Part shown: positions 1 through 13,830 of the stretch, piece by piece
Position numbering within the stretch: position 1 is the stretch's first letter
How the letters are laid out: every line of letters starts with the position of its first letter
Translations under genes and position numbers: made by a program
Assembly (NCBI GenBank): GCA_038240295.1
Contig: JBBSDW010000082.1
Span: forward strand, 1 to 15,725
Length of the DNA: 15,725 nt
Origin: Candidatus Kapaibacterium sp.
GTDB taxonomy: Bacteria > Bacteroidota > Ignavibacteria > Palsa-1295
Reading direction: 5' to 3'
Notes under the pieces: model-generated
Seen by the model: the letters and a program-made list of their open reading frames with translations, nothing else
Told to the model about the DNA's origin: nothing
The model's database searches: none

Positions 1-527
1 GACAGTGGCAACAACAGACCTTATCACACCAGGCTGCGTCACAGCAGCAGCAACAGCGGCAACCGCAGCAATCTGCTCAGCGTGCAGGTACAGCAAACAT
101 CGCAAATCGTGGATCGGGCAACGTCACGCAAATGACAACTGCGAACGGTCGCAGGGTCGTGGTGATCCACCGGGACGGTGGCGCAAATGGCGCGGCTGCA
201 AGTTCGGAACGAGGCTGGGGTCAAGGATCGAGCGCCGGTCGAAGCGATCAGGGCGGTCGCAGCGGCCAGGGCTATGGCAGAGTCTCGGGTGGCAACGGCT
301 CGGGCAGCAGCAGATCGGGTGGCAATAGCTCGGGAGGAGGCAGAGCATCTTCGGGCGGTGGTTCCAGAAGCTCCTACGGCGGCGGATCTTATTCGGGCGG
401 CAGTGGTCCTGGCAGCGGTGGCAATAGTGGAGGCGGTGGCAATAGTGGAGGTGGAGGTGGTGGCGGCCGTGGCAACGGCGACGGCGGTTCCAACAGCGGA
501 GGCGGCGGCCGTGCGCATTCGCGATAA
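1..527 (+). CDS. 3'-terminal fragment of a gene entering from upstream. It encodes a Gln-rich then Gly/Ser/Asn-rich low-complexity C-terminal tail (...GGNSGGGGNSGGGGGGGRGNGDGG...) with stop TAA at 525-527
   Basis: Frame 3 (positions 3,6,...) is open from the window edge to TAA at 525-527. All six frames are open across this GC-rich repetitive tract, so the frame choice rests only on codon preference (tcg/ggc, as in neighbouring genes). Nucleotide-level tandem repeats (ggtggcaatagtggagg x2, about 418-453) lie inside it. Confidence 0.4.
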   Translation, partial: QWQQQTLSHQAASQQQQQRQPQQSAQRAGTANIANRGSGNVTQMTTANGRRVVVIHRDGGANGAAASSERGWGQGSSAGRSDQGGRSGQGYGRVSGGNGSGSSRSGGNSSGGGRASSGGGSRSSYGGGSYSGGSGPGSGGNSGGGGNSGGGGGGGRGNGDGGSNSGGGGRAHSR

Positions 528-554
528 AGCTGTTCGTAACTAATTTAACTATCA

Positions 555-581
555 TTAACTAAACGCGCGACATTCTATAAT
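555..581 (+). promoter_or_regulatory. Candidate sigma70-like promoter for the downstream outer-membrane protein gene: TTAACT (555-560), 15-bp spacer, TATAAT (576-581)
   Basis: An AT-rich 90-bp intergenic tract sits immediately upstream of ATG 617. It contains an exact TATAAT hexamer. The -35 element is weak and the spacer is short. Confidence 0.25.
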
Positions 582-616: not shown

Positions 617-2140
617 ATGAGAAATACAACTGATCGTTTCGTTACTTCTTTCTTTATCGCCTTTCTTCTTTGCGGTGCGGTTATCGGCGTTGAGGGCGTT
701 CGCGCTCAGGGTCTCAGTGATGCACTTCGTGTTTCTACGAACGAACTTCCAAGCGGGCCTCGCGCAACGGGTCTGAATGGATCGCAAATTGGAACCCCAG
801 GTGGATTCGACGCGCTGCAATGGAATCCTGCTGCAATTGCACCCAATGAGTTCAACGAGGTAGGCGTATCGCTTTATTATCGCGGTCACAATTCGGAAGC
901 ACAATTTCTCGGGACATCGCTAGGCGATAACATTACGACGATGTCGCTTGGCTCGCTTGGGCTAACTTCCGTTTCGCCGACGCGTAGAGGTCATCTCGTC
1001 TTCGGTCTATCGTACGATCAGGTTCGGGATTATACTTCGAGCTATTCTTTTAGCGCGGTCAATCCGAATTCTTCGTTTCTGAATACGCAAGGTTTTGTCA
1101 ACGATCCGGGCCTTGGCCCAAAAACGGAGCCAAACCAGTCATATCTCGATCAGACAAATCTTGCATGGCAGTTGCACCTGACATACAATGTACCCGACTC
1201 GGGTGTAGCATCGCTCAAGACGCCGTTCGCCGGCGGCTTGCAGCAATCGGGCACGGTCACGCAGGAGGGTGGAATGCACGCACTTCGCGGAGGCGCAGCG
1301 ATAGATATCGCTGAAGGAATTTCCGTAGGCGCGGCGCTCAATCTTTATTACGGCACGTACACGTATCGTCGCGACTTAGTGGAGAAAGATGTTGCGGGCC
1401 TGTTCAATTCTGGTGATTCCACACCCAATAATTTCAGAAGCGCAGATATCATTGACACACGGGACCAGGAGCAGACAGGTATCAGTCTAAAACTTGGGTT
1501 GCTCGCGTATCAAAATGACTTTGTAAAATTCGGCGCAACGATCGAAACACCGGGTGTCTATCACGTGAGCGATCACTTTCATCGCTCAGGTACCGCGGAC
1601 TTTTATCACGCAAGTTATGTCAGTACGCCAAACGTCGAAACCGATTTGACAAATACGTACGACATGACCACGCCGCTAAAGCTCGGAGCCGGTGTGTCTT
1701 TTCATTTCCTGGGCGCTTCTCTTATGGGTAGTGCGAACTACCAGGATATGTCGCAGACACGGTTCTCGAATAGCGATGTAGATCTTTCGAACTTGAACGA
1801 CGATGCGCGCAAGAACTTGCGTGGCGTACTCTCGTGGCAGATCGGCGCCGAATACATCATTCCATTTGCAGGAATTGCGCTGCGGGCAGGGTACGGCGTC
1901 GAGCCATCGTCCTATAAGAACGACCCTTCGACCTACGATACAAAGACCCTCTCGTTCGGCGCAGGAGTCTTGCTAAGTAAGTCCTTCGTGATCGAAGCGG
2001 GGTATCAGCGGGTAACGTATACGACCGACCATTTGCTCTACAGCGATCTTGATGTCGCCGGCAACCCTGTCAGCGCCGCGATCAACGTCGACGCCGTTAA
2101 ACGCGACCAGGTCTCCGTTGGATTTGGCTATCGATTCTAA
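617..2140 (+). CDS. FadL/OmpP1/TodX-family outer-membrane beta-barrel channel, possibly PorV/LptO-like given the T9SS context
   Basis: N-terminal Sec signal peptide (MRNTTDRFVTSFFIAFLLCGAVIGVEGVRAQ). An NPA motif lies early in the mature protein (LQWNPAAI), as in the FadL hatch domain. The body shows alternating amphipathic beta-strand patterns. The C-terminus ends in an aromatic residue (...VGFGYRF), typical of OM beta-barrels. Length is 507 aa. Confidence 0.75.
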   Translation: MRNTTDRFVTSFFIAFLLCGAVIGVEGVRAQGLSDALRVSTNELPSGPRATGLNGSQIGTPGGFDALQWNPAAIAPNEFNEVGVSLYYRGHNSEAQFLGTSLGDNITTMSLGSLGLTSVSPTRRGHLVFGLSYDQVRDYTSSYSFSAVNPNSSFLNTQGFVNDPGLGPKTEPNQSYLDQTNLAWQLHLTYNVPDSGVASLKTPFAGGLQQSGTVTQEGGMHALRGGAAIDIAEGISVGAALNLYYGTYTYRRDLVEKDVAGLFNSGDSTPNNFRSADIIDTRDQEQTGISLKLGLLAYQNDFVKFGATIETPGVYHVSDHFHRSGTADFYHASYVSTPNVETDLTNTYDMTTPLKLGAGVSFHFLGASLMGSANYQDMSQTRFSNSDVDLSNLNDDARKNLRGVLSWQIGAEYIIPFAGIALRAGYGVEPSSYKNDPSTYDTKTLSFGAGVLLSKSFVIEAGYQRVTYTTDHLLYSDLDVAGNPVSAAINVDAVKRDQVSVGFGYRF

Positions 2141-2165: not shown

Positions 2166-2718
2166 GTACAAAGAGATAAATTTGACCTCGACTCTACTTT
2201 GTTAAACAAGTCATCCTGAGCCCGACGAAGGATCTTATCGTAGGTTTGGCTAAATGTGTAAGTTCTGGCGATAGCAACGGATTGTACTAGAACTCATGAA
2301 GCGATGCGAACGAAATGCAAGATTCTTCATCGGGTTCAGAATTACCGTTTAAAAGCGTGTTGCTGGAAATAAGCAGTAACGCGTTTTCGAGAATCGAGGT
2401 CGGGTTGAACTCCGACCTACATCGAACGTAGGTCGGGATTCATCCCGACCGCGCTCTGTACAAAGAGATAAATGTTGGCCTCGACCCTACTCTATTTATC
2501 AAGTCATCCTGAGCCCGACGAAGGATCTTATGGTAGGTTTAGCTAAATCTTTAAGTTCTGGCGAGATCAACGGATTGTCCTCGAACTCATGAAGCGATGC
2601 GAACGAAAAGCAAGATTCTTCGTCGGGTTCAGCATGACCGTTTAAAAGCGTGTTGCTGGTAATACGCAGTAACGCGTTTTCGAGATTTGAGGTCGGGTTG
2701 AAACCCGACCTACATCGA
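2166..2718 (+). repeat. Two tandem copies of a ~260-nt noncoding, hairpin-rich unit (copy 1 2166-2425, copy 2 2458-2718, period ~292 bp) joined by a 32-nt hairpin spacer (2426-2457). Candidate duplicated structured RNA or repeat family. Strand not established.
   Basis: Direct alignment by eye gives roughly 85-90% identity over ~260 nt. Conserved blocks include caagtcatcctgagcccgacgaaggatcttat, ctcatgaagcgatgcgaacgaaa, ccgtttaaaagcgtgttgctgg, gcagtaacgcgttttcgag and gaggtcgggttgaa.ccgacctacatcga. No ORF of 60 aa or more in any frame. Each unit has a 27-nt long-range inverted repeat (copy 2: 2503-2529 against 2612-2638) and several local stem-loops. Confidence 0.8.
2398..2450 (+). other. Cluster of three overlapping hairpins built from alternating GGTCGG(G)/CCCGACC segments: H1 2398-2417, H2 2412-2436, H3 2431-2450. 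This gives mutually exclusive pairings, like an attenuator or a recombination site.
   Basis: ggtcggg-ttgaact-ccgacc, then ccgacctac-atcgaac-gtaggtcgg, then ggtcggga-ttca-tcccgacc (a perfect 8-bp stem). Segments 1:2, 2:3 and 3:4 are each complementary. Copy 2 keeps only one hairpin (2691-2710). Confidence 0.5.
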
Positions 2719-2744: not shown

Positions 2745-4688
2745 CTACTTCAATTGCAATAGATTCAACGAATACCCGCCATCGCCGGATAGGATACGAA
2801 CTTGATACGTACCAGTGCAAAAAAGCTCAGTGCTAATAAGCGCTGGATGGTTCGGCGAAAGTTGAGTGGCACTCCGGGAGACAAGTTTGCCAAGCGCATC
2901 GAAGACCTCGATCGTCACTTCTCCCAGATCGGCGTCGGAATGAATCAATGCATACGTGCTCGCGGGGTTTGGGATGATGCGCAGAGTCGGAATCTTGCTG
3001 TAGCGTGTGAATTGGGAGATCAGTGGTGTGCCGCAGCCGAGTTTGCCGCAGACAGTGCTGATGATCGGCGAAGCTGTTATGGCGCAGATCTCTGAAGATT
3101 GCGTGATCACAAACGAGTCGAGAATAACGCTCGTGCAACTGCTGTCCTTCGGATAAATATGAAAGACGGCATATCCGGCTACATTTCCTTTCATTGAAGC
3201 TGCAGCTTGCGGAAAGAGCACATGCGCGAAGCCAACCCAGCGCGCCGTCGTGGCGTCGATCTGGCGGCCAGCTTGATACGATCCTGCATAGACCAGCATC
3301 GTCGTATCGTAACGAACGGCAAAGTCAAGATCACCAATAAACGATTGACTACTCGAAATGATCGGCACATAAATACTGCCGCCGATCGTGTCGTTGGAGA
3401 TATCCGCGGTCGTGAATGTGACCGTGGGAGCGTCACCACCGACTGCACTCAACGGGATGGTTTGTTCTTCGCCGCTTGCGAAGATATGCAACCGTGCAGC
3501 GTAGCTGCGAGCACTGGTAGGCAAAAAGATAACGCTCACAGAATCTCCTCTCGAAGGTATCGCTACGAAATTGAGTGAGTCAGCTCCATCGATGCTGAAC
3601 GAATCGATCGATGGCGTCCCGCAAAGCCCCAGCACTGCAAGTCCCATGCTGACGTCCGAGCAGGGCAGGACCGTATCGGGAAAATTCACCGACAGTGGTT
3701 GCACGCTCAGACCAATGCGCGGCACCACGGAATCGCCGCCGCTATTTGTCGTGCGCCAGACATTGCCTTCGGAGTCAGTGGCAACGATGATGTTGTCGGT
3801 GATCGCCGAGATCAGACGCGTGTCATACGTATTACTCGGTCCGCCGATACTCGTCCAGATTACACCATGATCGACGGAGCGGTAAATGCCATCCGTGATA
3901 GAGGGACAATAGACTGCGTTAGGAGAAACCGCAATGCTCCCGCAGAAAAAGGGATGATTCCTGCTAACCTGATTTGTCCAGGTCGCACCCAGATCTGTTG
4001 TTAAAAACAGTTGCGAGTACGCGTCGGAAGGGGAGATGTAATCTTCGTTCGAAAGCACGACTCGCGAAAGCTGGCAAGAATCGACGCCGAACGTAAACGA
4101 ATCGAAGTCGATCGCGCCCGCGCTCGCAACCCACGTGGCGCCCATGTCAGTAGAGCGATGCAAAAATCCGCCTCCCTGATCGCCGCCAAAATAGAGAACC
4201 GATCCGTCGCGGGACGTCGTGATATAAAATGAAGCAGGGGATTGCACCACATTTTTCCAGGACGCGCCAGCATCGGTCGATAATGCTATCACGCCCGAGG
4301 AATAGGCGATGGCAGCAACCATTGGCGAGCCGATAAAGCAGGCGGAGAGCGCCGCGCCGACGCTCGCCAGCTTCCAGGTCGTACCGCCATTACGTGTGAT
4401 ATAGGTGCCATTGATACAGGCGGCGATCCCGTTCGAGGCATCGATGAACTGGATGTCGTTGGCCGTGACAATGTTTCCGACCTTCGCCCAGGTAATGCCG
4501 AGATCATCCGAGCGGAACACGCTCCCTTTCGCGAGCCAAAGTCTGCCGTCGCGGTAGCTCATCGCACCGTTGCTGCCGGCCGGAACAAGATTCGGTGCCA
4601 CCATCTTCCACTGCGCTTCCGAACGGATCGGAAGCGCGAGTGTGAGCGAGGTGAGCATAACCAGAATGATGAGCACCGATAGTCTCAT
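2745..4688 (-). CDS. Secreted BNR/Asp-box repeat beta-propeller protein (sialidase/Ycf48/sortilin-like fold) with a T9SS C-terminal sorting domain
   Basis: Signal peptide MRLSVLIILVMLTSLTLALPIRSEAQ. Multiple S-x-D-x-G-x-T-W Asp-boxes (SDDLGITW, TRNGGTTW, STDAGASW, STDMGATW, TTDLGATW, SVDHGVIW). The C-terminal ~75 aa (IIPNPASTYALI...VTIEVFDALGKLV...GTYQVRI...) match the Por_Secre_tail pattern. Confidence 0.85.
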   Translation of the reverse strand: MRLSVLIILVMLTSLTLALPIRSEAQWKMVAPNLVPAGSNGAMSYRDGRLWLAKGSVFRSDDLGITWAKVGNIVTANDIQFIDASNGIAACINGTYITRNGGTTWKLASVGAALSACFIGSPMVAAIAYSSGVIALSTDAGASWKNVVQSPASFYITTSRDGSVLYFGGDQGGGFLHRSTDMGATWVASAGAIDFDSFTFGVDSCQLSRVVLSNEDYISPSDAYSQLFLTTDLGATWTNQVSRNHPFFCGSIAVSPNAVYCPSITDGIYRSVDHGVIWTSIGGPSNTYDTRLISAITDNIIVATDSEGNVWRTTNSGGDSVVPRIGLSVQPLSVNFPDTVLPCSDVSMGLAVLGLCGTPSIDSFSIDGADSLNFVAIPSRGDSVSVIFLPTSARSYAARLHIFASGEEQTIPLSAVGGDAPTVTFTTADISNDTIGGSIYVPIISSSQSFIGDLDFAVRYDTTMLVYAGSYQAGRQIDATTARWVGFAHVLFPQAAASMKGNVAGYAVFHIYPKDSSCTSVILDSFVITQSSEICAITASPIISTVCGKLGCGTPLISQFTRYSKIPTLRIIPNPASTYALIHSDADLGEVTIEVFDALGKLVSRSATQLSPNHPALISTELFCTGTYQVRILSGDGGYSLNLLQLK

Positions 4689-6439: not shown

Positions 6440-6653
6440 TAGAATAAAGCTGGTCAAGTGTTTTGCCAAATGGAGGCATTACGTGGACGTCGCGACCCAC
6501 GCAATTCCCGCCTACGTGGTAATGACACCTGCGTTCGTGTAGTGTCTTTCGGTTGTCATTCTCGCGGAGGCTGGAATACACGTTTGGGTCGCCGTAATGC
6601 GGGTGATGGATTCAAAGGTTTCTACCCTCAATGGTACTCACAATTTTTCGTTG

Positions 6654-6661
6654 TATATTTG
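6654..6661 (+). promoter_or_regulatory. Candidate Bacteroidota-type -7 promoter element TATATTTG (TAnnTTTG consensus) upstream of the 6735 operon
   Basis: The motif is read directly, about 75 nt upstream of ATG 6735. The expected -33 TTTG partner is not clean. Confidence 0.25.
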
Positions 6662-6734
6662 CATCCGACTCTACCTGTCATCGTTTCCTACGTTCTTTTC
6701 GATCGGCCAGAATTTGAAGCAGTTGCGAATTTCC

Positions 6735-7643
6735 ATGTTGGGAGTTTTCGCGATCAGCGCGCTTACAGTGCTGATGGCGTTTTGCGTGCTACCTGCCAAT
6801 TTGTTTGCGCAGCATCCCTATAAATACGACGTCGAATATCAATCGGGACGGAACGAGCTTTTTGTCTGGATGCACTTCGATTCTTCAACAGACGTAAACT
6901 ACGTACGTCAGAACGATTCGAGCGATGCGATGCCGCTCAAACGTGTCGATGTAAAAAGAATTTATTCGATCTCCGATCCGATTCGACCGCCGCATGAGAT
7001 CGAATGGACTTCGCATAAGGATGATGGCTGGGTGCCGATCGATCTCGATGCCTGCGATTGTCTCGGGCATGTTCGTTCCACGGCATTTCATCTTCTCGAT
7101 GCCAAACTTGGCCTGAGTTATCGGGGCAATAGCAGCTATACCCGAGTAACGCAAACGGGGCCGGTCGCAGAGAATTCTGTGTTCTTTAACCCGTTCAACA
7201 AGGGCGGCACGAACCTCGATATTGAGGCGGGCGCTGCGATCGGGTGGAGGGTTCATCATTGGGACCTCGGTCTGCAAGTCGAAGTGATCCCGACAGACGG
7301 CTTCTTTTATTTTCCGATCGCACTGCACGCGCGCTATTATTTCCTGAACGATTGCTGCACATGGAATCTCTTCGTGAACGCTGGCATTCCGTTCGATTTC
7401 CAAACGGGTGCACCGATCTTTATAACGCCGCTCTTCGATAGAAGGCAGCGCAGATATTTCAGCGCAGGTATCGGAAAGATCTGGCCGATGAACGAGTCGC
7501 ATGATTTCGCGATCGACTTGGGATACCGATATATGGTGATCCCGCTCGATCAGATCCAGTGCTGCCCGAGCATCGAGTTTCAGAATCGATTTCCAGCGCG
7601 CGAATCGCAGTCGATCTTTTTACAAGCAGGTTTATCATTTTGA
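6735..7643 (+). CDS. Secreted ~300-aa protein, candidate small outer-membrane beta-barrel. First gene of a three-gene operon.
   Basis: Signal peptide MLGVFAISALTVLMAFCVLPANLFAQ. An in-frame TTG at 6714 would add MKQLRIS and give a better charged n-region. The C-terminal half has alternating amphipathic strands (DLGLQVEVIP, FYFPIALHARYYF, NLFVNAGIPFDF, FAIDLGYRYMVIPL) and ends ...FLQAGLSF. The ORF is open from 6597, but that N-terminus lacks a signal peptide. Confidence 0.65.
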   Translation: MLGVFAISALTVLMAFCVLPANLFAQHPYKYDVEYQSGRNELFVWMHFDSSTDVNYVRQNDSSDAMPLKRVDVKRIYSISDPIRPPHEIEWTSHKDDGWVPIDLDACDCLGHVRSTAFHLLDAKLGLSYRGNSSYTRVTQTGPVAENSVFFNPFNKGGTNLDIEAGAAIGWRVHHWDLGLQVEVIPTDGFFYFPIALHARYYFLNDCCTWNLFVNAGIPFDFQTGAPIFITPLFDRRQRRYFSAGIGKIWPMNESHDFAIDLGYRYMVIPLDQIQCCPSIEFQNRFPARESQSIFLQAGLSF

Positions 7644-9988
7644 TGAGAATCTCAGGAATGCAAATTTTCAGCAGTCTGCAATTGCGGCAAGCCCCACGCT
7701 GGGCCTTGTTTGCGATCGTACTTCTGGCTGGCTGCATTCAGCACACGTTCGATCCGCAGCAGCTTAATCTGCATACGGTGGTCATCCAGACGCTAAAATC
7801 AACAGGGGCGGCTGCGAAAAATGTCGATGTCGCGCTCTTCGATGATAACACGACAACCGCCAACGAAATCTTTTCTGGAAATACCGGCGACTCGGGCGCG
7901 GTATCGATTCGGCTTGAGATCCCAACTTTCGGCCATAGCTATTCGCTAAGGATCAAGAAAAACGATGCGCTCGGCCAACTCATTTTCGCGCGGACGATCT
8001 ATCCGCTCAATCTGAAGTGCGTCGATACGCTGATCCAGATCGTGGTGCCGGAGGCCGACACGACCGTGCAGCGCGATTCCGTTTGCGGCCAGGATGTTCA
8101 GCGAACGTTAACATTCTTTGCCTGTGCTGACACTGAGGTAACACAAGCCTACACGCTCACAAACTGTTCGAACGCACCATATGTGGTGACAGCGAGCAAA
8201 TTTATTCTCGGCTCGCCATTTTCAGTCACCCCGGCTTCAGCCACGATTGCGCCTGGTCTTTCACAGCAGTTCACGATCACCTACGATGGACGAGGTCAAA
8301 CGGCGGACGCGAGCGCAAAACTTACGCTGACAACCACACCAGCCTCCGGCAATGTAACGCTCATTCTCATCGGCCATTTGCGACACGATTGCACGACGCC
8401 GACGCAGCAGATCGTTTGCGGTCAAAACGGAATTTCCGATGTGGTTCGCTTTGGTACTGTTTGCCAAAACGAAGTCACCGGCGCTGAATGTGTATCGCTT
8501 ACAAATACGAATCCAAGCGCTATTACGGTGAGCTTCCCGCAGGCGCCGATCCCGTTTAGTTACGTCGTGACCGATAATGCCGGCGCACAGCACGATGCCT
8601 CGCAGCCGCTCGTACTCAAGCAGGGAGAAAGTGTGACACTCTGCTTTTCGATCGATCCGCTTACTTCCGGTCTGATCAATGCGGATCTAAAATTGCCAAT
8701 GATCTGCGAGGGAAATCCTACGACGTTCACGTACGATATTCCACTCTTGGCGGTCTCGAAGATTTGCAACAATTGCCTTTGCACCGATTATTTCCACGAT
8801 CCGGTCGTGCTTGCGACGAATGTGAAAACGGGCGGCGATACCACCATCACGATCGAGATCTATCGTAACGATCTCAATTGCCCCGTGACGATCGATAAGG
8901 TTGCGCTTGTCGATGCGCTCTCCGAATGGACACTCGTTTCCGTAACACCTGCAGTACCGACGGTCGTGCCGACGGGAAGCCCAGTGACAGCTACGCTGAA
9001 ATTTCATGCGACGCATGCAGGAGCAAATATCGATCATCTTCATTTCAGCATTCTTCCTCAGGGCGCTACAACTCCGTGCACCGGCGAGATCATGCTAAAA
9101 GGGACGGGATGCAACGCAGCATGCGCCGCTGTCCTCATGCCGCCTGAGTGGTTGCCGAGTCCTCTTCCAAACGGACTCGACACATTGTTCTTTACCCAGA
9201 ATGGCGTTCCGCTCGTGTTTGTGAGCACCGCTGGAAGTTCGAGTATAAGCGATGAAGAGTGCATCACACTAAAGATGCCCGACACCGCATGCTCTGCTTC
9301 GACGTTCACGATCGTGCCACCGCGGAGTGCAATGTGGAGTGTGGCTACCACGCCTTCGCCATTGGTACTTGCTCCAGGCGCGATTGCGACCGTTTGCGTT
9401 CGCTTCACCGCTCCCGTGATCGATGAGGTCAGAAAAGATTTTACCCAGGCCGGACTTGAATTAAAGTATACAGACCTCCTGAAGATCATCGATCCGAATG
9501 GCTGCATGAAGAATGTACCGCTCAAGGCTGTGGTCGATACGCTGCCCGAATGTAAGGAATTTGATCTTGCACAGTACGGCTTTATCGGCTCGCAAAACGT
9601 GGTCTATCGTGAAATTTATTCGTTCGGCGGCGGAAGGCAGGACAACGTTCCGGCAGCGACAGGCGGCGCGCCGTCGTTCGGCGATATCTATCTTAAGAAC
9701 GCAACGCTCTTTAGCAGCGTCTCTGGCAACACGCCCCCAGGATTCTTCTTCTGGAAGAACAGCCAGACGCCGATCTGCAATAATATTCAGACAGTCACAT
9801 CGAGCCTGACTACGCTTGGACCTGCCGGACTAAGCTACACGTCAACGCTCACACTCGCCCAATATGATTGGATCGTCGTGAAAGTGACAGCAGGGACGTA
9901 TGCAGTGATCCAGGTAACGGCGACCTATCTTGATGGATTCAACATCCCTCATGCGGTCTGCTCGGTCATTTATCCATTTTATTACTGA
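7643..9988 (+). CDS. Large Cys-rich lipoprotein (~780 aa) composed of at least four tandem Ig-like/ASH-like (choice-of-anchor-D-like) beta-sandwich domains
   Basis: The start ATG 7643 overlaps the upstream stop (ATGA). Lipobox ...FAIVLLAGC. Internal protein repeats, e.g. VCGQDVQRTLTFFAC...TLTNCSNAPYVV...IAPGLSQQFTITY...KLTLTT against VCGQNGISDVVRFGTVC...SLTNTNPSAITV...LKQGESVTLCFSI...DLKL. About 30 Cys. No T9SS C-terminal domain. Confidence 0.75.
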   Translation: MRISGMQIFSSLQLRQAPRWALFAIVLLAGCIQHTFDPQQLNLHTVVIQTLKSTGAAAKNVDVALFDDNTTTANEIFSGNTGDSGAVSIRLEIPTFGHSYSLRIKKNDALGQLIFARTIYPLNLKCVDTLIQIVVPEADTTVQRDSVCGQDVQRTLTFFACADTEVTQAYTLTNCSNAPYVVTASKFILGSPFSVTPASATIAPGLSQQFTITYDGRGQTADASAKLTLTTTPASGNVTLILIGHLRHDCTTPTQQIVCGQNGISDVVRFGTVCQNEVTGAECVSLTNTNPSAITVSFPQAPIPFSYVVTDNAGAQHDASQPLVLKQGESVTLCFSIDPLTSGLINADLKLPMICEGNPTTFTYDIPLLAVSKICNNCLCTDYFHDPVVLATNVKTGGDTTITIEIYRNDLNCPVTIDKVALVDALSEWTLVSVTPAVPTVVPTGSPVTATLKFHATHAGANIDHLHFSILPQGATTPCTGEIMLKGTGCNAACAAVLMPPEWLPSPLPNGLDTLFFTQNGVPLVFVSTAGSSSISDEECITLKMPDTACSASTFTIVPPRSAMWSVATTPSPLVLAPGAIATVCVRFTAPVIDEVRKDFTQAGLELKYTDLLKIIDPNGCMKNVPLKAVVDTLPECKEFDLAQYGFIGSQNVVYREIYSFGGGRQDNVPAATGGAPSFGDIYLKNATLFSSVSGNTPPGFFFWKNSQTPICNNIQTVTSSLTTLGPAGLSYTSTLTLAQYDWIVVKVTAGTYAVIQVTATYLDGFNIPHAVCSVIYPFYY

Positions 9989-10000
9989 TCACTGAGTGCC

Positions 10001-11899
10001 ATGAAACACTTCGCGATCATTCTTACGCTCGGCCTCATCGTTGGCTCGATACTCGACGGTTGCTCCGGGTCGTCCGCACTTTCGCCCAACGCTGGCGAAC
10101 GTTGCGAATCGCCTTCGAAAAAAGAGGGGAATGTTGGTAATGTGATCAACTCGGCGACCGATGATTACGCGCCGAAGTTTATCGGCAACCGGTTGATCTA
10201 TTCAACAGGTATACACATCGCGGGAAAGCATCCCAAGGATCTTCAATCGGAATTCGCAAGTTCCGATCACAGCGGCAATTTTACGCAGGGACGCGTCAAT
10301 CGAGGCTGGGCCCAGGGGCAGTTGCTCGGTTCATCGCCATTCCAGGGGATCCCGCTCGATCTCAACGAGGGCGCATTCGATGTATTGCCCGACAAACATT
10401 ACGGAGTCTTTGCTGCCGAGCGATTGACGGGCGGCGGTGGCCAGTCGTCGCTGATGGATCTCTATGAAGTGCAGTTGAACGATCAGTTTCATGCAACGAG
10501 CACACCCGAACCGATCGCGGGCGTCAACGATCCGGAAGCATGGGATAGCCAGCCTACTTTGAGCGAAGATGGCAATACGCTTTATTTCGTAAGCGATAGA
10601 AATATCTCCGGCAGCGGACCAAGAGGCAATCAACATATCTGGCGTTCAACGCGAAATGGTGGAGCATGGTCGCGACCGATGCTTTTGCCAAAACCATTCA
10701 CATCTACGGGCAACGATGTTTCGCCGAATGTTGGACCCGATGGTTATTTCTATTTTTCATCAGACGGTTCGCCCGATGGTTTGGCCGTGCCAGAAGGAAT
10801 GGGTAGGCGCGATATCTATCGTGTGCCGATCATGAATGGTGAACTTGATGGTACGCCCGAGCGGCTCCCCGCACCCTTCAACTCACCGCAGGACGACGAT
10901 TTTCCGTTCGTCACTCGCGACAAACAATGGATGTTTCTTGCAAGCGATCGCGATTCAGGTTGCGGTCGCCGCGATATCTACGCTTTTCCTGTGCCTGTTT
11001 CGATTCATCTTGCAGGTATCGTGACGCAGACAGTTGAGACCGACGAAGGCTTTGGGCCGGCGCAGGGCATTCAGACGAATCTCTACATCGACGATCACAC
11101 GGCGAACAAACGCTATTCGATCCAGACGACGCAGAAGGGCGAATACGAGGTGCTCCTCAGGCCCGACCACCAATATACCGTAAGCGTTGCCGATTTCGGA
11201 TGCGCCGATCAAACCGGTGCGAGCAGCGTAGATGCCGTTCGCCCGAATGGCTGGGACACTACCTACGTTAGAAATTTTGCGTTGAAACGTAATACGATCA
11301 GTATCGTGCTTGGCAAGCAAAGCAATGTTCCTTTTTTCATCACCGGTTACTGGCGGCCGAATACTGCGGAAAATCTTGCAGCATTCAAACTCCGCAGAGT
11401 AACCGACACGGCCTTCGCGCACATTATTTATATCGACCCGACCGATTACAATTACGAGCAGGGCAGCGCAGAGGTCGATCAGATCTTCGAGAAACAGGTC
11501 TATCGCCCTATCCTCGATTCGATCCTGCCGTTGCTCGGTACTGCATGCTACGATTCAAATTACATCCTTCATCTCAACGTCGAAGGCTATACCGATAAGG
11601 ATTGCATCCACACCGACCGCTATCTCGATCAGAATGTTGCCGACAACGAGATCCCAGTCAACAACGGTGATATGATGGACGGACCCGAGTGCGGCAACAA
11701 AAAGCTTTCGATCCTTCGCGCATATTTTGCGAAGGAAATGATCAAGGAGCATTTGATGCAGGATCCGAAGTTTGCAGCCTACTATAATCAGGGCCGCATT
11801 AAGATCACCTCACATGGCCGAGGGATCGATCACACGGTCAAGAGCAACCAGGGCTTTAACCGGCGTGTCGACGTGACCGCCGAGGTCGAGCGCCGTTGA
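10001..11899 (+). CDS. Lipoprotein with PD40/TolB-like beta-propeller repeats, a carboxypeptidase-regulatory-like domain and a C-terminal OmpA-like peptidoglycan-binding domain. This is the PorE-like architecture of a T9SS component, lacking the N-terminal TPR region.
   Basis: Lipoprotein signal MKHFAIILTLGLIVGSILDGC. PD40-like repeats (DDYAPKFIGNRLIYS, WDSQPTLSEDGNTLYFVSDR, DVSPNVGPDGYFYFSSDG, DDDFPFVTRDKQWMFLASDR...RRDIYAF). A carboxypeptidase-regulatory-like stretch (LAGIVTQTVETDEGFGPAQGIQTNLYI...TTQKGEYEVLLRPDHQYTVSVADFGC). An OmpA_C-like end (NVEGYTDKD...NKKLSILRAYFAKEMI...NRRVDVTAEV). Starts 12 bp after the previous gene. Confidence 0.8.
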   Translation: MKHFAIILTLGLIVGSILDGCSGSSALSPNAGERCESPSKKEGNVGNVINSATDDYAPKFIGNRLIYSTGIHIAGKHPKDLQSEFASSDHSGNFTQGRVNRGWAQGQLLGSSPFQGIPLDLNEGAFDVLPDKHYGVFAAERLTGGGGQSSLMDLYEVQLNDQFHATSTPEPIAGVNDPEAWDSQPTLSEDGNTLYFVSDRNISGSGPRGNQHIWRSTRNGGAWSRPMLLPKPFTSTGNDVSPNVGPDGYFYFSSDGSPDGLAVPEGMGRRDIYRVPIMNGELDGTPERLPAPFNSPQDDDFPFVTRDKQWMFLASDRDSGCGRRDIYAFPVPVSIHLAGIVTQTVETDEGFGPAQGIQTNLYIDDHTANKRYSIQTTQKGEYEVLLRPDHQYTVSVADFGCADQTGASSVDAVRPNGWDTTYVRNFALKRNTISIVLGKQSNVPFFITGYWRPNTAENLAAFKLRRVTDTAFAHIIYIDPTDYNYEQGSAEVDQIFEKQVYRPILDSILPLLGTACYDSNYILHLNVEGYTDKDCIHTDRYLDQNVADNEIPVNNGDMMDGPECGNKKLSILRAYFAKEMIKEHLMQDPKFAAYYNQGRIKITSHGRGIDHTVKSNQGFNRRVDVTAEVERR

Positions 11900-11916: not shown

Positions 11917-13752
11917 TCAGTGCACGATGCTGATCGCGCTTCGCGCAAATCCGGCCGGCGTTCTTAACTCCGCATAATAAACGCCAGACGGAAGCTTCGT
12001 TGCATCGAAGCGTTCGAGGTGTTCGCCTGCAGTTATTTCTTTTTCGAGAACATTCGCAACCTTGCGGCCTTCGACATCGAAGATCGCGAGTGAGACGTTC
12101 GTCCGTTCGGCGAGCGAAAATCGGAATGTCGTTGAAGTGTTAAGCGGATTTGGATAATTCTCCTCGAGCGTCGCGTTTGAAGTTGGCGAACTAATACGAA
12201 CCGCACCTACCGGAGCGGCATCGATCGGCACCCAGGCAGCGTAGGGATTCGTGATGCCGTCGTTCGTTCGCTCATCGCACCAAACAGGAATCGTGTAATT
12301 ATCGGTCATGATCGTCGCCGCGTAATCGCCGACGCCGAAGGAAGCAGACTGATTTGTTGAAAATGCACCGTGATCGGATGATTTGGAGGAAACGATCTGA
12401 TTGGTAGCAAACGTAAGCCCGCCATCGTAAGAATTCGCAGTATAGGCGTTGGTGATCAGCGAATTCACATCGGTTCTTCGATCATACCAGCTGATACCGA
12501 TGATCCCCCGACGGTTCACAGCGATGCTCGGATTATAATGATCACCCAGTCTCGTCTCGACATCATCATTGACGGTTGAGGGAGCCGACCAGGTTGCCCC
12601 GTTATCGGTTGAACGAGAAAAATAAATGTTGAGCGGTGTCGTTGCAGCATTGAGCGTACCGTTGGCGCACCAGGTCAGATAAAGAAATCCGAGGTGACTT
12701 GTTTGCGAGGTATCGATCGTAAAATTCGGACACGGGTACTGCCGACCCTGTTCGATACCCGGAACGGGATGACTATCATCCAGCGAAAATCCCGGAAAAT
12801 GCACATCCACGGCTTTTTGAGCTGTCGAAAAGGTCACACCTCCATCGTTCGAAACAGAATGCCAGATCGCGAACTGACTTCCATCCTGCGATCCAAAAAA
12901 AGTGCAGTGAACACCGCCTTTTGGATCTACGACCACATTCGGAAACTGGACCATGGCAAAATTTGCACCGGCGATCAGCGAACCGAGTTGATTGAAGCTC
13001 GTCCCATTCGGGATCATTCGGCGAACCTGGATCGATGCCGTGCGATTGATCGAAACGATCGCGGCGTAAAGCGATCCGCGATAAGGAGAATTGCTCCGAT
13101 CGGCCGCGAGCCATTCTTTGTCGTATGCCTGCGAAGCGCTTTGCGTGATCGTCCCGCTCGCAACATACCCATTGGGGGCGCGAGTGAACGTGGCGCCGCC
13201 ATCCGTCGAGCTTGCCCAATAGATCTTGTTATAGTAGTAACTCTGGTTGTTTGCAAAAAAGTAAATGTCGATCCAGGCCATATAGAGCTTGCCATCAGCG
13301 CCCCAGGTGAACATCGGATCGCCGCCGCCGCCGACCAAGGTGTTCTGCTCGACCGGCAGAGGAGTGAAGCTCGATTTTTTCCATGTGCGGCCAAAATCCT
13401 TCGTGTAGTAGATCGGGCAAACAACTCCGAGGGTGCTCGCCGTATTGATCGGCGAGACGATGATATTCGTGCTGTCGGCTGGATTCATCGTCGCAAAAAC
13501 CTCTGCCTCCGCCGTGCGTTCGATATCGACATCAATCTCCCGGGGCCCGCCAAGTGTCTCACGTTTGTGTTCCGTTTCATTCGTCTTGGCAATCGCAGGA
13601 CCTCGCATCATCGAGGATTTCTCTCGAAGATACTTAGCGATAAGGCTATCGCCCATCCACATCGATTGCGCCGAAACAAGCGCAGGCAGCGATGCAAACG
13701 CGAGCACAAGGATAATTGCAACAGCAATTATACGGACAGGTGTTTTTTTCAT
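11917..13752 (-). CDS. Secreted BNR/Asp-box repeat (sialidase-like or glycoside-hydrolase-like beta-propeller) protein with a T9SS C-terminal sorting domain
   Basis: Signal peptide MKKTPVRIIAVAIILVLAFASLPALVSAQ (the ORF is open to 13800, but the 13752 ATG gives the canonical signal). Asp-boxes KDFGRTW, SSTDGGATF, SVSNDGGVTF, SRSTDNGATW, NSYDGGLTF. C-terminal domain ...NYPNPLNTSTTFRFSL...VSLAIFDVEGRKV...LPSGVYYAELRT... Confidence 0.85.
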   Translation of the reverse strand: MKKTPVRIIAVAIILVLAFASLPALVSAQSMWMGDSLIAKYLREKSSMMRGPAIAKTNETEHKRETLGGPREIDVDIERTAEAEVFATMNPADSTNIIVSPINTASTLGVVCPIYYTKDFGRTWKKSSFTPLPVEQNTLVGGGGDPMFTWGADGKLYMAWIDIYFFANNQSYYYNKIYWASSTDGGATFTRAPNGYVASGTITQSASQAYDKEWLAADRSNSPYRGSLYAAIVSINRTASIQVRRMIPNGTSFNQLGSLIAGANFAMVQFPNVVVDPKGGVHCTFFGSQDGSQFAIWHSVSNDGGVTFSTAQKAVDVHFPGFSLDDSHPVPGIEQGRQYPCPNFTIDTSQTSHLGFLYLTWCANGTLNAATTPLNIYFSRSTDNGATWSAPSTVNDDVETRLGDHYNPSIAVNRRGIIGISWYDRRTDVNSLITNAYTANSYDGGLTFATNQIVSSKSSDHGAFSTNQSASFGVGDYAATIMTDNYTIPVWCDERTNDGITNPYAAWVPIDAAPVGAVRISSPTSNATLEENYPNPLNTSTTFRFSLAERTNVSLAIFDVEGRKVANVLEKEITAGEHLERFDATKLPSGVYYAELRTPAGFARSAISIVH

Positions 13753-13830
13753 TTGATCAATGACGTCAGAAGCTAACCGATTGAGAAACCCAAGCCTCAC
13801 AGAAAAGTTACACGCGCTTTCTAGGAGTTG

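What the first reader, a model, noticed from the sequence alone, without database searches (positions are those of the whole stretch)
6735..11899. Three-gene envelope operon: small OM beta-barrel, multi-Ig-domain Cys-rich lipoprotein and a PorE-like PD40-CRD-OmpA lipoprotein
The genes are tightly packed and co-oriented. Gene A's stop overlaps gene B's start as ATGA at 7641-7645, and only 12 bp separate B from C. All three products are envelope proteins (signal peptide, lipobox, lipobox). I do not recognise this combination of a beta-barrel, a ~780-aa lipoprotein of repeated Ig-like/ASH-like domains and a peptidoglycan-anchored beta-propeller lipoprotein as a described system. It is flanked on both sides by T9SS cargo genes. 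It could be an uncharacterised outer-membrane/peptidoglycan-bridging complex or an accessory module for secretion or surface attachment.
Basis: partly seen in the sequence, partly recalled or inferred. Interest (0 to 1): 0.65.

Follow-up and report, generated by a model that had tools for sequence, protein, structure and literature searches.

The report
Conserved barrel, Ig-lipoprotein, cell-wall-anchor operon
Three adjacent genes encode a small outer-membrane barrel, a large cysteine-rich lipoprotein and a PorE-like protein predicted to bind the cell wall; the trio keeps the same order across Kapabacteria and Ignavibacteria, has not been described before, and most likely forms a wall-anchored outer-membrane complex of unknown role.

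Summary
Genes A (6735-7643), B (7643-9988) and C (10001-11899) are co-oriented. A and B overlap by 1 nt (TGATG, not ATGA). B and C are 12 nt apart.

- **B:** a lipoprotein with 25 Cys, 21 of them invariant. One HYDIN/ASH-type Ig domain passes threshold; the other Ig domains are inferred. No structure was obtained.
- **C:** a lipoprotein with a PD40 propeller, a CRD sandwich and an OmpA-like domain. Sequence profiles miss the OmpA-like domain, but a confident model matches Pal, MotB, OmpA and the PorE C-terminal domain. It keeps PorE's peptidoglycan-binding Asp/Asn/Arg triad. It lacks PorE's TPR domain and scores far below the PorE family cutoff.

The order A-B-C recurs in every one of 11 loci long enough to test, from two bacterial classes, with unrelated flanks. 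The best reading is a PorE-PorP-like, peptidoglycan-anchored outer-membrane complex that holds a modular Ig-rich lipoprotein. A link to type IX secretion is only suggestive. I rate it a new variant of a known kind, of moderate interest.

The parts
6735..7643 (+). Gene A: secreted outer-membrane protein, 302 aa. Signal peptide aa 1-25, N-terminal beta-rich domain about aa 27-115 with the conserved SDPIRPP motif, and a small C-terminal beta-barrel aa 119-302 ending in Phe. The three Cys pairs C107xC109, C207C208 and C276C277 are invariant among the close homologues.
7089..7640 (+). Beta-barrel portion of A (aa 119-302). DSSP calls nine strands, so I describe it as 8 to 10 strands.
7643..9988 (+). 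Gene B: lipoprotein of 781 aa (lipid Cys31 at 7733-7735). An invariant QHT..P.Q motif follows the Cys directly. [quoted passage not shown] It has 25 Cys, 21 of them invariant in 7 orthologues.
   Evidence: Sequence. Alignment. Pfam. Orthologue Pfam hits fall in different modules. Weak internal repeat signal, D1 to D4 at 51% probability. B length varies from 318 to 853 aa among loci.
8132..8365 (+). HYDIN/VesB/CFA65-like (ASH/PapD-type) Ig domain of B, aa 164-241. This is the only B domain that passes a curated threshold.
   Evidence: PF22544 scores 47 bits against a cutoff of 25.5, E 3e-12. ASH scores 24.5 bits, below its cutoff of 27. The PDB profile hit to HYDIN 2ys4 has E 0.05.
9551..9985 (+). 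C-terminal domain of B (aa 637-781, ...GTYAVIQVT...YPFYY). No family assignment. It lies within the part of B that still aligns with the short Ignavibacteria B proteins.
   Evidence: Alignments. No Pfam, NCBIfam or PDB sequence hit.
10001..11899 (+). Gene C: PorE-like lipoprotein of 632 aa (lipid Cys21 at 10061-10063). It has a PD40 beta-propeller, a CRD sandwich and an OmpA-like domain, and no TPR domain.
   Evidence: Pfam PD40 E 5e-11. Partial NCBIfam hits: CHU_0125_OmpA 110.5 bits against cutoff 620, and T9SS_PorE 77.6 against 600, both over aa 36-434 only. hhalign to a canonical Kapabacteria PD40-OmpA protein gives probability 100% over the N-terminal region, propeller and CRD (aa 1-398).
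10133..10990 (+). PD40 beta-propeller region of C (about aa 45-330).
   Evidence: Pfam PD40 repeats. Aligned to the PorE and CHU_0125 models and to P0060.
11003..11311 (+). Carboxypeptidase-regulatory-domain-like (transthyretin/CnaB-type) beta-sandwich of C (aa 335-437).
11336..11896 (+). Divergent OmpA-like peptidoglycan-binding domain of C (aa 446-632). The putative binding triad is D532 (11594-11596), N566 (11696-11698) and R573 (11717-11719). The D-to-N spacing is 34 residues against 8 in PorE, an insertion of about 26 aa.

Best explanation
A, B and C are one transcription and function unit encoding an outer-membrane complex tied to the cell wall.

Shown:
- The three genes are co-oriented and almost contiguous, and their order is conserved.
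- A models as a small OM beta-barrel with an extra N-terminal domain.
- B is a lipoprotein with at least one ASH-type Ig domain and many conserved cysteines.
- C is a lipoprotein with a PD40 propeller, a CRD and an OmpA-like fold. It retains the Asp/Asn/Arg triad that binds the diaminopimelate stem in PorE, Pal and OmpA.

Inferred mechanism:
- C sits on the inner face of the outer membrane. Its OmpA-like domain binds peptidoglycan non-covalently.
- C's propeller holds barrel A, as the PorE WD40 domain is thought to hold PorP.
- The A-C pair fixes in place the modular, disulfide-stabilised Ig-rich lipoprotein B. B would be either a periplasmic stalk or, if flipped outward, a surface protein.
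- The logic matches the PorE-PorP anchors proposed to hold non-mobile surface proteins in Flavobacterium, but it is built from a barrel family and a client family specific to Ignavibacteria and Kapabacteria.

The cellular role is not known. Candidates are envelope integrity, surface display and a secretion accessory.
For: - A-B-C order with gaps of at most about 105 nt (under 45 nt in all but one locus), or overlaps, in the window, L001, L004, L006, L007, L011, L012/13, L014, L015, L016 and a 517-kb JGI contig. HMM classification confirmed this, and the flanks are unrelated.
- A fold.
- C-terminal fold of C and the invariant triad.
- Ignavibacteria C orthologues add an FtsN/SPOR-like tail, a second wall-binding module: ftsN E 1e-6, SPOR E 0.047, and P0035 carries PF05036.
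- PorE's WD40 domain is implicated in PorP binding, and its PG-binding residues are essential (PMC12773672).
- porP-like genes lie next to porE-like genes in F. johnsoniae, and PorP-PorE-like anchoring of non-mobile surface proteins has been postulated (PMC9143113).
- A barrel immediately followed by a PD40-OmpA gene also occurs in a canonical form in Kapabacteria (L018).
- There are no internal promoter or terminator signals above chance.
Against: - No interaction among A, B and C was tested; no multimer prediction was possible.
- The 26-aa insertion between Asp and Asn could alter the binding pocket.
- B has no structure model, and its side of the membrane is unknown.
- A shows no sequence relation to PorP/SprF, or to the OMP_b-brl_2 barrel that partners the canonical PD40-OmpA gene.
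- C is not always a lipoprotein. The L011 and Ignavibacteria orthologues lack the Cys.
Confidence: 0.5

Rival explanations
1. The trio is a dedicated type IX secretion accessory. C would be the clade's PorE-type anchor, A would stand in for a PorP- or PorG-like barrel, and B would be a T9SS-associated scaffold or a client attached after secretion.
For: C shares the propeller-CRD-OmpA-like layout of PorE. T9SS cargo genes flank the window trio. A PorQ-family gene lies directly upstream of A in L004: PorV_fam 146 bits against cutoff 90, and T9SS_PorQ 188 against 220. PorZ (265 against 260) lies two genes upstream in L001. Cargo genes lie within 10 kb in about half the loci.
Against: B has a lipobox and no type-A or type-B CTD. 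A gives no PorP/SprF or PorG hit. C scores 78 bits against the PorE cutoff of 600 and lacks TPR. At least one Kapabacteria genome encodes separate, more PorE-like PD40-OmpA proteins scoring about 270 bits. About half the loci have no T9SS gene nearby. From general knowledge, T9SS cargo genes are abundant in these genomes, so chance proximity is plausible; this was not quantified.
Confidence: 0.2
2. The trio is a general envelope-integrity tether, working like Pal/TolB or CHU_0125. C staples the outer membrane to peptidoglycan, and A and B are membrane partners or spacers. In Ignavibacteria the SPOR tail would bias it towards division sites.
For: The best NCBIfam hit of C is the CHU_0125 outer-membrane integrity family, at 110 bits. 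Deleting CHU_0125 causes OM leakiness and hypervesiculation (PMC5891637). C has the OmpA-like fold and triad. Ignavibacteria orthologues carry an FtsN/SPOR-like tail. The trio is conserved across two classes, as expected for a housekeeping function.
Against: The score is far below the CHU_0125 cutoff of 620. TolB scores 11.9 bits against 343. A plain tether does not explain a strictly linked family-specific barrel and a large lipoprotein of variable length. The window's C has no SPOR tail. B appears split into two ORFs in two metagenome assemblies, which may be frameshifts.
Confidence: 0.2
3. The trio is the outer-membrane partner of an Mla/MCE-type lipid transporter.
For: In L012/L013 and L016, mlaE-mlaF-mlaD lie directly upstream on the same strand, with gaps of 28-34 nt leading into the A-like gene.
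Against: Those loci belong to one closely related lineage: MlaD matches at E 1e-195 and the downstream genes are the same. No mla gene is near the trio in the window or in L001, L004, L006, L007, L011, L014, L015 or L017. No MlaA-like domain is present.
Confidence: 0.05
4. The three genes are unrelated envelope genes that merely sit together, or cargo of a mobile island.
For: Integrase genes lie near the trio in L004 and L005. The flanks vary among genomes.
Against: The same order, tight spacing and 1-nt overlap persist from 62% down to about 25% protein identity across two classes. GC content is uniform across the trio and its flanks. No repeats border the trio. The L004 integrase has XerC/D-type domains.
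Confidence: 0.05

Closest known systems
PorE (PG1058) and the PorE-PorP sub-complex of the Bacteroidota type IX secretion system
   Same: C is an OM lipoprotein with a beta-propeller, a CRD sandwich and a C-terminal OmpA-like domain in the same order. It conserves the three PG-binding residues: PorE D576/N584/R591 correspond to C D532/N566/R573. It is encoded next to an OM beta-barrel gene, as porE-like genes often sit next to porP-like genes.
   Different: C has no TPR domain. Its NCBIfam PorE score is 78 bits against a cutoff of 600. Its OmpA-like domain is undetectable by Pfam because of an insertion of about 26 aa. The partner barrel A is a small OmpA/NspA-like barrel with no PorP/SprF signature. 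A third gene, the Ig-rich lipoprotein B, is inserted between them. A role in secretion is untested.
F. johnsoniae clusters of a type-B-CTD protein, a PorP/SprF-like barrel and a PorE-like anchor
   Same: Both have the three-part logic of a large Ig-rich cell-envelope protein, an OM barrel and a PG-binding PorE-like protein, encoded together. In Flavobacterium these are postulated to anchor non-mobile surface proteins to the wall (PMC9143113).
   Different: B is a lipoprotein without a type-B CTD (TIGR04131 gives no hit). From memory, the usual F. johnsoniae gene order is cargo-barrel-anchor, whereas here it is barrel-B-anchor; I did not verify the Flavobacterium order. The A and B families are restricted to Ignavibacteria and Kapabacteria.
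CHU_0125 family OmpA-like outer-membrane integrity protein (Cytophaga hutchinsonii) and Pal/TolB
   Same: CHU_0125 is the best NCBIfam match of C. Both are lipoproteins that would link the outer membrane to peptidoglycan. C's PD40 propeller is of the TolB type.
   Different: C scores only 110 bits against a cutoff of 620, over the propeller and CRD. It has no match to the family's N-terminal region or OmpA region. TolB scores 12 bits against 343.
Small 8-stranded OM barrels (OmpA TM domain, NspA, OmpW, PagL, OprF-N)
   Different: Sequence similarity is not detectable. A has an extra N-terminal domain of about 90 aa and three conserved cysteine pairs. Most Ignavibacteria members are themselves lipoproteins with an extra CxxC after the lipobox.

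Membership tests
PorE family T9SS protein (NF052230) | Whole-protein score at or above the curated cutoff (600 bits) | tested here: not met
   77.6 bits, aligned only to model positions 142-511.
PorE family T9SS protein | N-terminal TPR domain (PorE residues 25-149) | tested here: not met
   No TPR Pfam hit in C or in 5 orthologues. True PorE-like hits carry TPR families; C and its orthologues do not.
PorE family T9SS protein | OM lipoprotein with a beta-propeller followed by a CRD | tested here: met
PorE family T9SS protein | [quoted passage not shown] | tested here: met
PorE family T9SS protein | Required for T9SS cargo secretion; binds PorP | not testable with these tools
   Needs genetics and pull-downs.
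CHU_0125 family OmpA-like OM integrity protein (NF053607) | Score at or above 620 bits over the full length | tested here: not met
   110.5 bits, model positions 153-478 only.
OmpA family (PF00691) | Sequence-profile match to the OmpA_C-like domain | tested here: not met
   No hit at E up to 10 for five C-terminal domains. PDB profile search found none. hhalign against Pal, OmpA and P6 matched 17 columns at 31% probability.
PorP/SprF family (PF11751 / TIGR03519), for gene A | Profile match | tested here: not met
   No Pfam or NCBIfam family for A, nor for 42 A-family members beyond one DUF481 hit at E 0.0098.
Small 8-stranded OM beta-barrel fold, for gene A | Closed antiparallel barrel with a C-terminal aromatic residue and a signal peptide | tested here: met
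T9SS cargo (type A CTD TIGR04183/PF18962, or type B CTD TIGR04131), for gene B | C-terminal sorting domain | tested here: not met
   No NCBIfam hit at E up to 0.1 and no Por_Secre_tail hit in B.
ASH/HYDIN/PapD-like Ig repeat proteins, for gene B | Several tandem Ig-like domains | tested here: inconclusive
   One domain is above cutoff (PF22544, 47 bits, aa 164-241). Orthologues hit the same family in other modules. Internal repeat signal is weak. No structure model was possible.
Tol-Pal (TolB TIGR02800) | TolB equivalog score at or above 343 bits | tested here: not met
   11.9 bits.

The most novel reading that the evidence does not exclude
The trio is a previously unrecognised envelope machine conserved at class level in Ignavibacteria and Kapabacteria. 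A dedicated small barrel (A) and a wall-bound PorE paralogue (C) would together position or display a disulfide-rich, length-variable Ig lipoprotein (B). This would be a route for anchoring a large envelope or surface protein that uses a lipid anchor rather than a T9SS C-terminal signal. In some lineages it is coupled to septal peptidoglycan (SPOR tail) or to Mla lipid transport.
Probability: 0.2. Interest if true: 0.65.

Novelty: new variant of a known kind. Interest (0 to 1): 0.42.

Why it matters
Ignavibacteria and Kapabacteria are deep-branching relatives of the Bacteroidia, and their envelopes have hardly been studied. This work defines:
- a strictly conserved three-gene module built around a divergent PorE paralogue;
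- two protein families, A and B, that have no curated model;
- an OmpA-like domain variant that sequence profiles miss.

If the module proves to be a wall-anchored holder for a large lipoprotein, it would extend the PorE-PorP anchoring principle beyond type IX secretion. It would also help explain how these bacteria organise their outer membrane. For now the practical gain is better annotation of about 60 protein clusters per family and a clear set of experiments.

Tried and rejected
- **Sequence detection of the OmpA domain.** Pfam on full C, on 5 orthologues and on isolated C-terminal domains at E up to 10, PDB phmmer and profile searches, and hhalign against Pal, OmpA and P6 all failed or were marginal. 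Only the structure model resolved it.
- **Structure of B.** I then spent the last prediction job on the C-terminal half of C. B therefore has no model.
- **Fold library.** The afdb50 library was unavailable.
- **B against the PDB.** The profile search gave only marginal hits.
- **B self-comparison.** It gave weak repeat signals.
- **A against the barrel that partners the canonical Kapabacteria PD40-OmpA gene.** No relation.
- **Wider synteny survey.** The genome scan found 2 loci. The first metagenome scan attempt failed for lack of conserved columns. The second found only 1 locus.
- **Mla linkage.** Rejected as general because it occurs in one lineage only.
- **Conserved flanking genes.** None found.
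- **Mobile-island idea.** Rejected on uniform GC and absence of bordering repeats.
- **Bacteroidota BAM accessory subunits (BamG, H, M, P).** Considered because of the upstream BamG/PorV-like ORF. A, B and C do not resemble them.
- **RNA and signal scans.** Rfam, tRNA and promoter/terminator scans found nothing relevant.
Full report
**1. The observation**

The window carries three co-oriented ORFs at the stated positions: A at 6735-7643, B at 7643-9988 and C at 10001-11899.
- A begins with a classical signal peptide (…ANLFA|QHPY) and ends in …GLSF.
- B has the lipobox LLAG-C31.
- C has ILDG-C21. Its orthologues have canonical LTGC, LAGC, LVGC or IAGC lipoboxes.
- The A/B junction reads TTGATGA.
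- The B-C spacer is 12 nt, as stated.
- The public gene call for A starts at 6597 (348 aa). That start would put 71 residues ahead of the predicted cleavage site. ATG 6735, or the in-frame TTG at 6714 (MKQLRIS…), fits a signal peptide better.
- T9SS type-A CTD cargo genes lie on both sides, at 2745-4688(-) and 11917-13800(-). An SPFH gene and a MOSC gene separate the upstream one from A.

**2. Gene A**
- No Pfam or NCBIfam model matches A.
- The word-indexed search of 5.8 billion clusters found 13 relatives.
- An exhaustive HMMER search of 1.84 billion representatives with the family profile found only 63.
- None of 42 members tested matches a Pfam family convincingly.
- The AlphaFold model from 13 sequences (pLDDT 72) shows a beta-rich N-terminal domain (about aa 30-80) and a barrel from aa 119 to the C-terminus.
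- Three cysteine pairs (C107xC109, C207C208, C276C277) are invariant among the 13 close homologues and largely kept in the wider family.
- Most Ignavibacteria members are themselves lipoproteins, with an extra CxxC just after the lipobox.

**3. Gene B**
- Only one domain passes a curated threshold: a HYDIN/VesB/CFA65-type (ASH/PapD-like) Ig domain at aa 164-241 (47 bits against 25.5).
- In orthologues the same family hits other modules: aa 281-361 of the L015 protein and aa 528-592 of the L011 protein. Several modules are therefore probably of this type.
- Profile self-comparison is weak, with a best probability of 51%.
'Multi-Ig' is therefore plausible but only partly shown.
- B has 25 Cys, 21 of them invariant in seven orthologues.
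- It has an invariant QHT..P.Q motif immediately after the lipidated Cys.
- It has a conserved C-terminal domain of about 145 aa with no known family.
- B length varies from about 320 to about 850 aa between lineages. The N-terminal module and the C-terminal part stay detectable at weak similarity. This looks like a modular protein of adjustable length.
- B has no T9SS CTD of either type.

**4. Gene C**
- Pfam detects PD40 repeats (E 5e-11) and a weak CRD.
- NCBIfam gives partial hits to CHU_0125_OmpA (110 bits, cutoff 620) and T9SS_PorE (78 bits, cutoff 600). Both cover only aa 36-434.
- No sequence method detects an OmpA domain.
  - OmpA-like peptidoglycan-binding domains for aa 446-632: Tp0624 at 9.8, OmpA-C at 9.4, MotB at 9.3, TagL and OprF-C at 9.1, Pal at 8.6, RmpM at 8.6 and the PorE C-terminal domain 6top_B at 8.0.
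- In PorE the DAP moiety is bound by Asp576, Asn584 and Arg591 (PMC7192894). Asp576 and Asn584 are essential for function (PMC12773672).
- C has GYTD532 … GN566KKLSILR573. The Asn-Arg spacing is the same as in PorE, and all three residues are invariant in 22 sequences.
- An insertion of about 26 residues between Asp and Asn explains why profiles fail.
- C is not a PorE family member. It lacks the TPR domain and scores far below the cutoff.
- A canonical Kapabacteria PD40-OmpA protein scores about 270-280 bits on the same models (P0060); P0061, an unlabelled homologue with the same architecture, scores about 265. Its genome carries two such genes, one preceded by an OMP_b-brl_2 barrel (L018).
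- C is homologous to that protein over the N-terminal region, propeller and CRD (hhalign probability 100%, aa 1-398).

**5. Synteny**

Contig look-ups and HMM classification of all ORFs show A, then B, then C, adjacent and on one strand, in every locus with room for them:
- the window, L001, L004 (same as L010), L006, L007, L011, L012 (same as L013), L014, L015 and L016;
- a 517-kb JGI contig for which only gene calls were available.

Protein identity to the window falls to about 25-33% in the Ignavibacteria loci. Named records are Candidatus Kapaibacterium and Ignavibacteriae/Ignavibacteria MAGs. Flanking genes are not shared.

**6. Context clues**
- mlaE-mlaF-mlaD lie directly upstream in L012/13 and L016. 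These loci are closely related and no other locus shows this.
- A PorQ-family gene is directly upstream of A in L004, and PorZ is two genes upstream in L001.
- CTD cargo genes lie within 10 kb in about half the loci. From general knowledge these organisms encode many cargo proteins, so I treat the T9SS link as suggestive only; I did not quantify it.
- Ignavibacteria C orthologues are 870-930 aa long because of a Lys/Glu/Pro-rich linker and an FtsN/SPOR-like end. This is a second wall-binding module and strengthens the peptidoglycan inference.
- The L011 and Ignavibacteria C orthologues lack the lipid Cys. In most Ignavibacteria loci A carries a lipobox instead, as in L012 and most family members; in L011 the A-like gene is split and begins with an ordinary signal peptide.

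**7. Mechanism**

The best-supported reading is a wall-anchored outer-membrane complex.
- C binds peptidoglycan through its OmpA-like domain.
- C uses its propeller to hold barrel A. This is the arrangement inferred for PorE and PorP.
- Together they fix B in place.

Whether B faces the periplasm or the surface is open. The Kapabacteria B N-terminus is not acidic. The Ignavibacteria ones carry Asp/Glu soon after the Cys, which, from memory, resembles the Bacteroidota surface-export signal.

The three-part logic parallels the F. johnsoniae clusters in which porP-like genes sit next to porE-like genes. Those pairs are postulated to anchor non-mobile type-B-CTD proteins (PMC9143113). Here A is not PorP/SprF and B has no CTD. 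So the trio works like that system but is not a member of it.

Rivals are a true T9SS accessory, a Pal/CHU_0125-like integrity tether (PMC5891637), an Mla partner, and mere co-location. Each is scored in its own section.

**8. Novelty and verdict**

Searches of the held literature found no description of this trio. The recently defined Bacteroidota BAM subunits do not resemble it. C is a new, divergent variant of the PorE/CHU_0125-type anchors. A and B are uncurated, clade-restricted families. The function is unknown. I rate this a new variant of a known kind, of moderate interest.

Noticed in passing
window 2182-2425 and 2475-2718: Two copies of a 244-nt direct repeat (90% identical, 293 nt start to start) fill the 2141-2744 intergenic gap. 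There is no Rfam match. They could be a repeated intergenic element or a pair of small RNA genes.
   Followed up: partly
window 617-2140 (+): This 507-aa outer-membrane protein has weak, sub-threshold hits to BamG (41 bits against cutoff 250) and to the PorV/PorQ family (37 against 90). It is probably a FadL-fold barrel. It is not conserved next to the trio in other loci.
   Followed up: partly
window 1-555: The left end has raised GC (0.57) and low-complexity Gly/Ser/Asn-rich or Ala-rich open frames on both strands. It is probably the tail of a truncated gene. The five ORFs tested have no Pfam hit.
   Followed up: partly
window 6440-6734: A 295-nt non-coding gap lies upstream of A. The public gene call for A starts inside it at 6597 (348 aa). 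ATG 6735 or TTG 6714 gives a proper signal peptide.
   Followed up: yes
L012/L013 4595-13240 and L016 1-7554: In one Ignavibacteria lineage the trio sits in a co-oriented run: mlaE-mlaF-mlaD, A-like, B-like, C-like, then a conserved 192-aa lipoprotein. Gaps are 17-34 nt from mlaD onward.
   Followed up: yes
L012 10001-12634; also L014, L015 and P0035: Ignavibacteria C orthologues (870-930 aa) carry a Lys/Glu/Pro-rich linker and an FtsN/SPOR-like C-terminal module. The Kapabacteria (window) protein lacks both.
   Followed up: partly
L018 6666-11467: A Kapabacteria genome has two canonical PD40-OmpA genes (510 and 488 aa). The second is preceded by 18 nt by a 283-aa OMP_b-brl_2 barrel. This is a simpler barrel-plus-anchor pair, and its barrel is unrelated in sequence to A.
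   Followed up: partly
L004 8718-9782; L001 5972-8341: A PorQ-family gene lies directly upstream of A in L004. A PorZ gene lies two genes upstream of A in L001.
   Followed up: partly
L014 7666-9959; L016 3029-4328: The B-like gene is split into two ORFs (180+598 aa in L014, 312+89 aa in L016). These may be assembly frameshifts or decay.
   Followed up: no
window 7736-7765 (B aa 32-41): Residues Q33, H34, T35, P38 and Q40 of B, directly after the lipidated Cys, are invariant in all Kapabacteria orthologues. This suggests a specific docking or sorting signal.
   Followed up: no
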